A DNA stretch of 64,000 bases from a virus (Duplodnaviria; Caudoviricetes), in IMG/VR virus record IMGVR_UViG_3300022602_000026, one strand, 5' to 3'. The stretch's first letter is position 1; each line of letters begins with the position of its first letter. The position numbers and the translations under genes were made by a program. Shown here piece by piece: positions 56,278 to 62,933 of the stretch. The notes below the pieces were generated by a model. That model was not told the origin of the DNA, searched no databases, and saw only the letters and a program-made list of their open reading frames with translations.

Positions 56278-56368
56278 GGAAGGCCAATCCAAATGGCGAT
56301 GGAACCGGTCTTGAAAACCGTCGAGCGTTAATAACGCCTTTAGAGTTCGACTCTCTAGCCTTCCGCCA
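56278..56368 (+). tRNA. tRNA-Ser(TGA)
   Basis: Cloverleaf, loop CTTGAAA, long variable arm, TTCGA, CCA. Confidence 0.95.
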
Positions 56369-56413
56369 AAATCTCACCGCTTCCGCCAATGTTGTATTTG
56401 TGCAACACCGCAG

Positions 56414-56658
56414 TTGTTCAGAAATGACAACTCAGTTATAATAGATACAAGTTAAGCAATTAACTGAAGTTAAGCAATTAACAAGTGTTGTATAACAACA
56501 ACATCAAATTTGCAAAGAAATGATGTCTAAGTTATAATAGATACATGTTAAGAAATTAACTAAGTTTAATTGATTAGCAAGTGTGTAGTGTAAATGCAAC
56601 ATCAAATTTGCAAAGAAATGATAAAGCAGTTACAATACATATATGTTAAGAAATTAAC
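56414..56658 (+). promoter_or_regulatory. Three tandem sigma70 promoters, each followed by a GTTAA-N4-TTAAC palindrome
   Basis: TTGTTC-17-TATAAT (56414), TTGCAA-17-TATAAT (56510), TTGCAA-17-TACAAT (56608); palindromes at 56451, 56469, 56547, 56645. Confidence 0.75.
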
Positions 56659-56735
56659 AGTAACAAATGATTGAGTTAGTTACAGAGTTCATTAAAAAAT
56701 TATTTAGGTAGTGCTAGTTTTGCTTGGCAACAAGC

Positions 56736-56995
56736 ACTACTTTAAAACACATTTGAGGTTACCTACACCGTTAGGTTCTCTAGGAGAGGAGCAAGGGTGC
56801 CGACTCACGCAATCCTAGGGCAACATGAAACAGAGCAGTAATGCTTGGCGATAGCGGCGGACAGGTAGGCAGTAATGACGAACTGAAGTCTGTGCAGACG
56901 GTGCACCGGGATGTTATCGAGCGTAAACCCTTATTAGGTAACGAACGGGTTGTGAGACGACAGAGGGGAGTTCCTCAAGTGTTTTTTAAAGTAGT
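56736..56995 (+). ncRNA. Candidate 260-nt multibranch ncRNA
   Basis: 23-bp near-perfect closing stem; internal CTCTAGGA/TCCTAGGG, CCTAC/GTAGG, AACCC/GGGTT helices and a GAGCA-GTAA-TGCTT GNRA hairpin. Confidence 0.6.
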
Positions 56996-57066
56996 TGAAA
57001 CTCTAGATTAAATCCACTGGTAATAAAGAGAGAAGTGAGTGGTACTCTCCAACTACTAACAATTTT

Positions 57067-57144
57067 GGTCTCATAGTATAGTTGGCCTAATATGCCTGCC
57101 TGTCACGCAGGAGATCACGGGTTCGAATCCCGTTGAGACCGCCA
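57067..57144 (+). tRNA. tRNA-Asp(GTC)
   Basis: CCTGC-CTGTCAC-GCAGG, TTCGAAT, CCA. Confidence 0.95.
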
Positions 57145-57214
57145 AAGTTTTCTGGCATTTTAACAAGGCGAGCCGTCAATGCAGAGTCTAGTTAAATGTA
57201 AGTCCAATCTAATT

Positions 57215-57897: not shown

Positions 57898-57926
57898 TTG
57901 ACAGTAAATGATGTTACTGTTACAAT
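57898..57926 (+). promoter_or_regulatory. Internal sigma70-type promoter
   Basis: TTGACA-17-TACAAT, ending 11 nt before tRNA-Gln. Confidence 0.8.
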
Positions 57927-62904: not shown

Positions 62905-62933
62905 TTGACAAATAAATAGAATGATAGTATAAT
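62905..62933 (+). promoter_or_regulatory. Consensus sigma70 promoter
   Basis: TTGACA-17-TATAAT, ending 10 nt before tRNA-Gly. Confidence 0.9.

What the first reader, a model, noticed from the sequence alone, without database searches (positions are those of the whole stretch)
56736..56995. 260-nt multibranch RNA closed by a stem sharing the AAAACACAT core of the array
Seen: ACTACTTTAAAACACATTTGAGG (56736-56758) pairs with CCTCAAGTGTTTTTTAAAGTAGT (56973-56995). It encloses 214 GC-rich nt with several helices and GNRA-type loops, directly downstream of three tandem promoters. The AAAACACATT word matches the array left arm. I do not recognise it as RNase P, tmRNA, SRP or 6S. Inference: a highly expressed phage ncRNA processed by the same signal as the array.
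Basis: partly seen in the sequence, partly recalled or inferred. Interest (0 to 1): 0.72.

Follow-up and report, generated by a model that had tools for sequence, protein, structure and literature searches.

The report
Uncatalogued folded RNA of giant lake phages
The 260-base stretch is a real gene for a folded non-coding RNA that matches no catalogued family, is shared by many uncultured giant freshwater phages, sits right behind very strong promoters (here at the head of the phage's tRNA genes), and has an unknown job.

Summary
Window 56736-56758 pairs with 56973-56995 (21 Watson-Crick pairs, 1 G-U, 1 mismatch) and encloses 214 nt at 52% GC. It is one member of a large RNA family: 61 distinct sequences from about 100 viral and freshwater metagenome contigs.

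A covariance model gives 91% paired cells, against 71% in shuffles and 36-45% in slid controls. 40 of 46 pairs show changes on both sides.

No Rfam 15 family matches. There is no match in 50,697 phage records, in species-representative prokaryote genomes, or in the nearest cultured relative (Pseudomonas phage PA5oct).

Three large contigs, one 98% complete, carry one copy each; one small contig carries two. Every member follows a strong sigma-70 promoter. About half lead tRNA arrays, and their closing stems share a word with other stem-closed modules. The rest stand among small early genes and use a different closing stem.

Best reading: a stable, early, trans-acting phage RNA, cut out or end-protected through its roughly 22-bp closing stalk. 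The partner and function are unknown. Expression was not shown.

The scan had already found relatives on other DNA (e1-5375691, e1-5322397, e1-5322417).

The parts
56414..56636 (+). Three tandem sigma-70-type promoter units upstream of the RNA. Their -10 boxes end at 56442, 56538 and 56636.
   Evidence: Consensus scan lists 56510-56538 at 10/12 and 56608-56636 at 9/12. The first unit (TTGTTC-17-TATAAT) was read. Homologues carry 10-12/12 promoters in the same position.
56708..56740 (+). 5' hairpin (GTAGTGCT / AGCACTAC). Its 3' arm overlaps the outer 5 nt of the closing stem.
   Evidence: Read. It is conserved, with compensatory changes, in L005, L029, L041 and L033.
56736..56758 (+). P1 closing stalk, 5' arm
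   Evidence: The inner 8 bp covary across the family (helix 1).
56759..56972 (+). Conserved folded core of 214 nt; the family core is usually 160-180 nt.
   Evidence: cmsearch with model R1: 86.1 bits, E 1.3e-20. nhmmer E 2e-124.
56762..56772 (+). 5' strands of P2 (CCUAC, 56762-66) and P3 (CCGUU, 56768-72). They pair long-range with 56865-69 and 56856-60.
   Evidence: Helices 2 and 3 are 99.7% and 98.7% paired, with changes on both sides in 4 of 5 pairs each. The paralogue on L094 has CCUAG/CUAGG and CCAC/GUGG.
56778..56820 (+). P4-P5 arm: P4 is 56778-85 with 56813-20; P5 is 56795-98 with 56803-06, with loop GCCG.
   Evidence: (helices 4-8).
56821..56833 (+). Conserved junction J4/6, family consensus AUGAA followed by a purine and a pyrimidine.
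   Evidence: Consensus from alignment A6.
56834..56845 (+). P6 hairpin with a GNRA tetraloop (GUAA).
   Evidence: Helix 9 is 97.6% paired and all 5 pairs show changes on both sides. The loop is GNRA in nearly all members.
56856..56877 (+). 3' strands of P3 and P2, followed directly by the near-invariant mini-hairpin CA-GUAA-UG (56870-77).
56892..56906 (+). P8 hairpin with the conserved 7-nt loop AGACGGU.
   Evidence: Helix 12 is 90% paired and all 5 pairs covary. The loop is conserved.
56907..56962 (+). Lineage-specific insertion in the 3' domain, present only in the window, L003, L005 and L026 group. Its structure is not resolved.
   Evidence: Alignment gaps. Only two sequence variants are available. 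The insertion made the model end its match early, at 56936.
56973..56995 (+). P1 closing stalk, 3' arm
56990..57057 (+). Separate conserved 3' module (AGTAGTTG ... CAACTACT) that overlaps the outer 6 nt of P1. It also occurs on its own inside a tRNA array in L055.
   Evidence: (L055 6098-6219).
57067..57144 (+). tRNA-Asp(GUC), the first tRNA downstream.

Best explanation
The stretch encodes one member of a previously uncatalogued family of structured non-coding RNAs carried by giant (120 to over 350 kb) uncultured freshwater phages.

Most likely mechanism:
(1) Host sigma-70 RNA polymerase transcribes it from consensus-grade promoters immediately upstream, so it is made early and abundantly.
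(2) It folds into a compact unit. The P2/P3 long-range helix encloses a three-way junction with the P4-P5 arm and the GNRA-capped P6. Next to it lie an invariant CA-GUAA-UG mini-hairpin and the P8 hairpin with loop AGACGGU. The 5' and 3' flanks close the whole fold as P1.
(3) P1, typically 20-25 bp, acts as a processing stalk and end clamp. Either host RNase III cuts it, as it cuts the stems flanking 16S and 23S rRNA and phage T7 early RNAs, or exonucleases trim back to it. This would free the RNA from the neighbouring tRNAs or mRNA and stabilise it.
(4) The mature RNA acts in trans through its invariant junction and loop nucleotides, probably by binding a host or phage macromolecule.

Step 2 is shown. 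Step 1 is read from sequence. Steps 3 and 4 are inference, and the partner is unknown.
For: Family and structure:
- There are 61 distinct sequences from IMG/VR and freshwater metagenome contigs.
- In the alignment, 91.4% of cells are paired, against 70.8% in shuffles (0 of 500 reach the observed value) and 36-45% when partners are slid. 40 of 46 pairs show changes on both sides.
- Frequent G-U pairs fix the strand as + and the level as RNA. Examples: UG 60/61 at one P3 pair and UG 36 at the next.
- It is not coding: the median longest open frame is 54 codons in about 215 nt, and length varies in steps that are not multiples of three.

Promoters:
- Every member with enough upstream sequence has a strong sigma-70 match, often 12/12.
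- In 16 members of the non-tRNA group the -10 box ends 6-7 nt before the first P1 base, so P1 starts at about +1.

Stalk:
- 47 of 61 members have at least 20 paired positions in P1, with a mode of 22.
- The RNase III dimer accommodates about 22 bp of dsRNA and processes rRNA and T7 early precursors (PMC6212723).
- Near-identical cores occur in different stalks according to context, as expected for a cargo-plus-adaptor design.

Trans action:
- Many members are followed by a second consensus promoter before the next gene.
- Downstream genes differ from phage to phage.

Distribution:
- Three large contigs, including a 98% complete genome of 353 kb, carry one copy each.
Against: - No expression data. 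The four metatranscriptome runs that could be laid covered only tRNA-Asp.
- No RNase III cut has been seen, and no phage RNase III gene is present, so processing would depend on an unknown host.
- About a quarter of members have P1 below 20 pairs, and two have only 4 bp. The long stalk is therefore not essential to the core function.
- In L024 the RNA runs straight into a ribosome-binding site and start codon, which would also fit a cis-acting leader.
- No partner, ligand or target was identified. Neighbouring proteins have no informative Pfam match.
Confidence: 0.55

Rival explanations
1. It is a cis-acting co-transcriptional element. Like phage HK022 put RNA or the rrn leader, the nascent RNA would modify the transcribing RNA polymerase into a processive, terminator-resistant form, so that the long, structure-rich tRNA array or early operon is read through.
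For: It is always the first element behind a strong promoter and on the same strand as what follows. Here it heads a block of more than 6 kb containing tRNAs, structured modules and homing-endonuclease genes. In L024 it is a direct 5' leader of a gene.
Against: Many members are followed by another consensus promoter before the next gene, so most downstream transcripts would lack the element. The tRNA array has its own internal consensus promoters at 57898 and 62905. A 22-25 bp perfect duplex invites cleavage, which would break the tether such elements need. No conserved terminators were found downstream: the terminator-like count equals the shuffle expectation. The fold is far more elaborate than put RNA.
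Confidence: 0.12
2. It is a decoy or sponge against a host defence. An abundant early RNA would soak up a host nuclease or sensor, for example a tRNA-directed defence nuclease, and so complement the phage's large tRNA set.
For: It has early consensus promoters and sits at the head of tRNA arrays in about half of members. It is restricted to virulent-type giant phages and was not found in cellular genomes. One contig carries two diverged paralogues, as would be expected if targets diversify.
Against: There is no resemblance to tRNA or to any known defence RNA in Rfam. No defence system or host has been identified. The strongly conserved core sequence argues for one conserved partner and against an arms-race target.
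Confidence: 0.12
3. It is a ribozyme of a new class, either self-cleaving or self-processing, or acting on the phage's tRNA precursors.
For: It has many invariant unpaired nucleotides in junctions, three GNRA-type loops typical of large self-folding RNAs, and a compact multi-helix core. It is linked to tRNA arrays.
Against: There is no match to RNase P, group I/II, hammerhead, HDV, twister, pistol, hatchet or glmS models even at E <= 10. No conserved cleavage-site context is evident. Half of the members are not near tRNAs.
Confidence: 0.1
4. It is a self-assembling RNA-only particle, like the ROOL and GOLLD nanocages, but built from a smaller unit.
For: The ecology is the same: phage-encoded, often beside tRNA islands, function unknown (bioRxiv 10.1101/2024.12.08.627333). 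GNRA loops could mediate contacts between molecules.
Against: The core is only about 180 nt, against more than 500 nt for ROOL and GOLLD. No conserved self-complementary loop was found in the core. The covarying palindrome lies in the separate 3' module.
Confidence: 0.07
5. It is a ligand-sensing riboswitch that controls the downstream operon.
For: It has a conserved aptamer-like core just behind promoters. In tRNA-context members the outer P1 nucleotides can alternatively pair with the 5' hairpin and with the 3' module.
Against: A P1 of 20-25 bp (-20 to -38 kcal/mol) is far too stable to switch. There is no conserved terminator or SD-sequestering platform. Downstream genes are unrelated from phage to phage, and many have their own promoter.
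Confidence: 0.04

Closest known systems
GOLLD and ROOL RNAs (large ornate phage and prophage RNAs)
   Same: They are phage-encoded, often beside tRNA islands, have strongly covarying complex folds, have no known protein partner or function, and are probably abundant.
   Different: There is no sequence or structure match to either Rfam model. This RNA is three to four times smaller (core about 180 nt). It was found only in virulent-type giant freshwater phages and not in prophages. Oligomerisation was not tested.
Phage T4 stable RNAs RNAC and RNAD (species 1 and 2) in the T4 tRNA gene cluster
   Same: They are small stable phage RNAs co-located with phage tRNA genes, and their function is still unknown (PMC9697503).
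   Different: No similarity was detected: there was no blastn match in 50,697 phage records. The T4 RNAs are classed as late, whereas this family sits behind early-type sigma-70 promoters. The T4 RNAs are shorter (about 120-140 nt, from my own knowledge).
RNase III processing stalks flanking 16S and 23S rRNA and phage T7 early RNAs
   Same: Distant 5' and 3' flanks form a duplex of about 22 bp that encloses a structured RNA. It lies in a transcript driven by tandem strong promoters and shared with tRNAs (PMC6212723).
   Different: Cleavage has not been observed here. The enclosed RNA is 160-260 nt and is not rRNA. Some members have short stalks.
Phage HK022 put RNA and other processive-antitermination RNAs
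   Same: They are promoter-proximal structured RNAs on the operon strand.
   Different: This RNA is much larger and more elaborate. It is often separated from downstream genes by another promoter, and it is closed by a cleavable duplex.

Membership tests
Any Rfam 15 family (including RNase P, tmRNA, 6S, SRP, GOLLD, ROOL, group I/II introns, self-cleaving ribozymes, riboswitches, Phage_pRNA) | Covariance-model score at or above the family's gathering threshold | tested here: not met
   Whole window at gathering thresholds: only tRNAs. Region 56380-57070 at E <= 10: one chance SAM-II hit in the promoter region. Ten loci holding other family members at E <= 1: only tRNAs and a weak YrlA hit over tRNAs.
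GOLLD/ROOL kind (ornate phage RNAs by tRNA islands) | Phage-encoded and frequently adjacent to tRNA genes | tested here: met
   All members lie on viral or freshwater metagenome contigs. About 22 of 61 have a tRNA within 2-270 nt downstream.
GOLLD/ROOL kind (ornate phage RNAs by tRNA islands) | Very large size (over 500 nt) with many pseudoknots | tested here: not met
   Core length is mostly 160-180 nt, and 214 nt here. No pseudoknot with convincing covariation was found.
GOLLD/ROOL kind (ornate phage RNAs by tRNA islands) | Homo-oligomeric RNA-only assembly | not testable with these tools
   This needs native gel electrophoresis or cryo-EM.
RNase III processing stalk | Intramolecular duplex of about 20 bp or more formed by sequences flanking the mature RNA | tested here: met
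   Here: 23 positions, of which 22 are paired. Across the family, 47 of 61 members have at least 20 paired positions.
RNase III processing stalk | Staggered double cleavage leaving 2-nt 3' overhangs | not testable with these tools
   No RNA-end data. RNA runs covered only tRNA-Asp.
Riboswitch | An expression platform (terminator or SD-sequestering helix) coupled to a short switchable P1, and a consistent class of downstream genes | tested here: not met
   P1 energies run from -20 to -38 kcal/mol. Downstream genes are unrelated and often have their own promoter. There is no excess of terminator-like sites.
T4 RNAC/RNAD | Sequence homology to the T4 stable RNAs | tested here: not met
   No blastn match in the phage collection at E <= 1. 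I did not confirm separately that T4 is in that collection.
Protein-coding gene | A conserved open reading frame spanning the element | tested here: not met
   The longest open frames have a median of 54 codons and are not conserved. Substitutions are compensatory in helices.

The most novel reading that the evidence does not exclude
The family is a new functional RNA class of giant phages with an activity of its own. It could be a new ribozyme acting on the phage's tRNA precursors, or an RNA-only assembly or ribonucleoprotein core that reprogrammes host translation or RNA decay early in infection. In that reading the exchangeable closing stems form a general cassette system by which these phages deploy many structured RNAs.
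Probability: 0.15. Interest if true: 0.85.

Novelty: new variant of a known kind. Interest (0 to 1): 0.6.

Why it matters
Giant phages are known for carrying parts of the translation apparatus, but their non-coding RNAs are almost unexplored. This is a well-supported and widespread RNA family: 61 distinct sequences and strong covariation. It is placed behind the strongest possible host-type promoters, and in many phages it is the first product of the tRNA operon.

That makes it a defined, testable object for a long-standing open question: what do the large structured RNAs found beside phage tRNA islands (GOLLD, ROOL, T4 RNAC/RNAD) do? At about 180 nt the core is small enough for SHAPE, crystallography or cryo-EM, and pull-downs.

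The cargo-in-adaptor-stem design may also explain how these phages process and shuffle many small RNAs.

Tried and rejected
- Rfam at gathering thresholds and at permissive E-values, on the window and on ten homologous loci: nothing but tRNAs.
- blastn (near and distant modes) against 50,697 phage records, using the window RNA, its flanks, 24 kb of the window and a compact homologue: no match.
- Expression: the look-up of sequencing runs gave lake and freshwater DNA holders (share up to 0.37) and six RNA runs with small shares. The four RNA runs that were laid covered only 57072-57146, which is tRNA-Asp of other organisms. Nothing can be said about transcription.
- Pattern hits in GTDB genome contigs (7 loci, including a Burkholderiales MAG): none scores with the model, so they are chance matches.
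- 151 Burkholderiales genomes searched with the model: not found in those searched.
- Phage-encoded RNase III and RtcB: not found in four related viral records.
- Neighbouring proteins: small ORFs with no informative Pfam family and no fixed partner gene.
- Pseudoknots and tertiary pairs:
  - A candidate GGACU/AGUCC pairing is absent in members that share the same 3' domain (read).
  - A P7-like CUGGA/UCCGG pairing fails for the same reason.
  - A scan of unpaired columns found only a P4 extension and a few correlations that may be phylogenetic.
- The thermodynamic MFE pairs CACCGU with the P8 loop. Covariation in L047, L050 and L094 supports the GACGG strand next to P2 as the partner.
- Hand comparison with RNase P CR-I/CR-V, the hammerhead core, group I P/Q/R/S elements, the sarcin-ricin loop, the L11-binding region and the 16S 3' end: only short resemblances of chance level. 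All were dropped.
- Complements of the conserved loops elsewhere in the window: single hits at chance level.
- Supplement of the IMG/VR structured-RNA survey (PMC10690425): not held, so I cannot tell whether this family is among its 8,495 unnamed candidates.

Full report
**What is there.** Window 56736-56758 and 56973-56995 form a 23-position duplex of 21 Watson-Crick pairs, one G-U pair and one C/U mismatch. It encloses 214 nt that are 52% GC, in a 41.6% GC window; the arms are 30% GC. The + strand folds to -84.9 kcal/mol (z = -3.5) and the - strand to -69.5 kcal/mol.

The element lies between tRNA-Ser(UGA) at 56278-56368 and tRNA-Asp at 57067-57144. It sits at the head of a block of 25 tRNA genes interspersed with homing-endonuclease genes. 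Three promoter units lie upstream, with -10 boxes ending at 56442, 56538 and 56636.

The window belongs to a myovirus with a 1150-aa tail sheath. Its large terminase is 53% identical to that of the Pseudomonas jumbo phage PA5oct.

**It is a family.** A 20-nt word from the core found four viral contigs. Three further patterns and nhmmer raised this to about 30 distinct sequences. One metagenome scan added 62 loci. I tested 52 of them with the model, and 46 score as true members. After removing duplicates there are 61 distinct sequences.

The contigs range from 1 kb to 356 kb. The DNA runs that hold part of the window are lake and freshwater metagenomes.

Where the family was not found:
- any of 50,697 phage records;
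- PA5oct and Sinorhizobium phage Phosso, searched whole with the model;
- species-representative prokaryote genomes, where the pattern hits do not score with the model;
- 151 Burkholderiales genomes.

Three large viral contigs carry exactly one copy each, including one of 353 kb that is 98% complete. One 1.1-kb contig carries two diverged copies.

**Structure.** I derived helices by hand from compact members. From them I built a covariance model of 180 positions and 46 pairs and realigned all members.

On 61 distinct sequences, 91.4% of cells are standard pairs. Shuffles give 70.8% (0 of 500 reach the observed value), and sliding the 3' partners gives 36-45%. 40 of 46 pairs show changes on both sides.

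Supported helices:
- P1, the closing stem.
- P2 (CCUAC/GUAGG) and P3 (CCGUU/GACGG). Together they form a long-range helix enclosing a three-way junction.
- The P4-P5 arm.
- P6, capped by a GNRA loop.
- A near-invariant CA-GUAA-UG mini-hairpin stacked on P2.
- P8, with the conserved loop AGACGGU.
- P7 is weak, at 70% paired.

Invariant single-stranded stretches are UUA, AGG, AUGAA, GGAGAAGCG and GUUCC.

Invariant and frequent G-U pairs show that the selected molecule is RNA read from the + strand. The paralogue on L094 changes P2 to CCUAG/CUAGG and P3 to CCAC/GUGG.

In the window the family fold costs -77.4 kcal/mol against the MFE of -84.9. The MFE mispairs the P3 strand with the P8 loop, which covariation does not support.

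The window lineage has an extra insertion of about 55 nt in the 3' domain (56907-56962). Its fold I could not settle, because only two sequence variants exist.

The region is not coding.

**Context.** Every member follows a strong sigma-70-type promoter. There are two main contexts.

- In 28 members the closing stem is of a GACAGTTAG type. No tRNA lies within 400 nt. In 16 of these the -10 box ends 6-7 nt before the first P1 base, so transcription starts at the foot of P1; in most of the rest the best promoter lies about 115 nt upstream. In about half of the 28 a second consensus promoter follows within about 80 nt.
- In about 22 members, including the window, the stem carries an AAACA(C/U)A word. 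The promoter lies 64-98 nt upstream and a tRNA follows within 2-270 nt.

Nearly identical cores occur in both stem types (L041 versus L049). The stem is therefore an adaptor that follows context, and the core is the cargo.

In the window the same AAAACACA / UGUGUUUU core sits in six stems: 56089/56165, this one, and the four array stems.

In tRNA-context members a 5' hairpin and a 3' module share 5-6 nt with the outer end of P1. Either P1 frays there, or the three helices meet in a junction.

Downstream genes are small, unrelated between phages and of unknown function.

**How it probably works.**
- Shown: a conserved, independently folding RNA.
- Read from sequence: strong early-type transcription.
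- Inferred: the 20-25 bp P1 (47 of 61 members have at least 20 pairs, mode 22) is the size that RNase III binds. It has the same layout as the stems through which RNase III releases rRNAs and T7 early RNAs (PMC6212723). P1 should therefore serve to excise the RNA, or to stop exonucleases at its foot.
- No phage RNase III or RtcB gene was found, so host enzymes would do this.

The RNA is probably trans-acting. A second promoter so often separates it from the next gene, downstream genes vary, and the core is conserved in sequence as well as in pairing. What it binds is unknown.

Rivals are a cis-acting antiterminator, an anti-defence decoy, a new ribozyme, a ROOL-like assembly and a riboswitch. 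They are listed with their tests in the rival explanations. None is excluded except, in practice, the riboswitch (P1 is far too stable) and a coding or DNA-level reading.

**Comparison with what is known.** No Rfam 15 model matches any member.

The nearest kinds are GOLLD and ROOL: phage RNAs near tRNA islands whose function is unknown and which are now known to form nanocages. Also close are T4 RNAC and RNAD, stable RNAs of the T4 tRNA cluster whose function is still unknown. This family shares their ecology but not their sequence, size or fold.

It may be among the 8,495 unnamed IMG/VR candidates of PMC10690425. I could not check this.

This scan had already flagged relatives on other genomes. 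e1-5375691 was followed up with the same conclusion; e1-5322397 and e1-5322417 are first-reader notes.

**Verdict.** This is a real, well-supported and apparently undescribed RNA family of giant lake phages. Its function is open.

Noticed in passing
window 56990-57057; also L055:6098-6219, L003, L005, L050: A separate conserved module of about 68 nt lies directly 3' of the RNA. It is closed by AGTAGTTG/CAACTACT and has interleaved CCACU / GAGAG / AGUGG / CUCUC segments, a possible H-type pseudoknot. It also holds a 6-nt palindrome that changes between phages but stays palindromic (TCTAGA, ACTAGT, CCCGGG, ACCGGT, CTCGAG), which suggests a kissing-loop dimer or a dimeric protein site. In L055 it occurs on its own inside a tRNA array.
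   Followed up: partly
window 57165-57213; 11 other distinct loci: There is a second small conserved motif: GGCAUU, then a variable hairpin, then UGUAAGUCCAAUCUAAU. Here it lies between tRNA-Asp and tRNA-Glu. In L039, L083 and L087 it begins immediately after the closing stem of the RNA, so the two modules often travel together.
   Followed up: partly
L094:1-183 and 834-1029: Two diverged paralogues of the RNA lie about 650 nt apart on one contig. P2 and P3 differ by compensatory changes, and the 3' domains are of different types. The two are separated by other modules and two small genes that have their own promoters.
   Followed up: partly
3' domain of L016, L009, L041, L040, L049, L039: A 47-nt 3' domain, from GAAGGCAGACG to GGAGUU, is identical in members whose P4-P5 arms are quite different. 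This points either to domain-level recombination (a mosaic RNA) or to very strong sequence constraint on that hairpin.
   Followed up: no
window 56708-56740, 56736-56740, 56990-56995, 57050-57057: Four mutually complementary 5-6-mers (GTAGT, ACTAC, GTAGT, ACTAC) link the 5' hairpin, P1 and the 3' module. Alternative local or long-range pairings are therefore possible. The set covaries in L005 (ACTATC/GATAGT). These may be junction points for cassette exchange or a folding pathway.
   Followed up: partly
window 57898-57926 and 62905-62933: Consensus-grade sigma-70 promoters (11/12 and 12/12) lie inside the tRNA array, so the array is not a single transcription unit.
   Followed up: no
window 56278-56368; L026:1476-1562, L054:1365-1451: ARAGORN calls the tRNA-Ser(UGA) upstream of the promoters, but it is absent from the Rfam tRNA gathering list. 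tRNA-like stretches at the corresponding upstream position in two related contigs, which I take to be its counterparts, score as tRNA-Sec-like below threshold (41 bits against a gathering score of 47).
   Followed up: no
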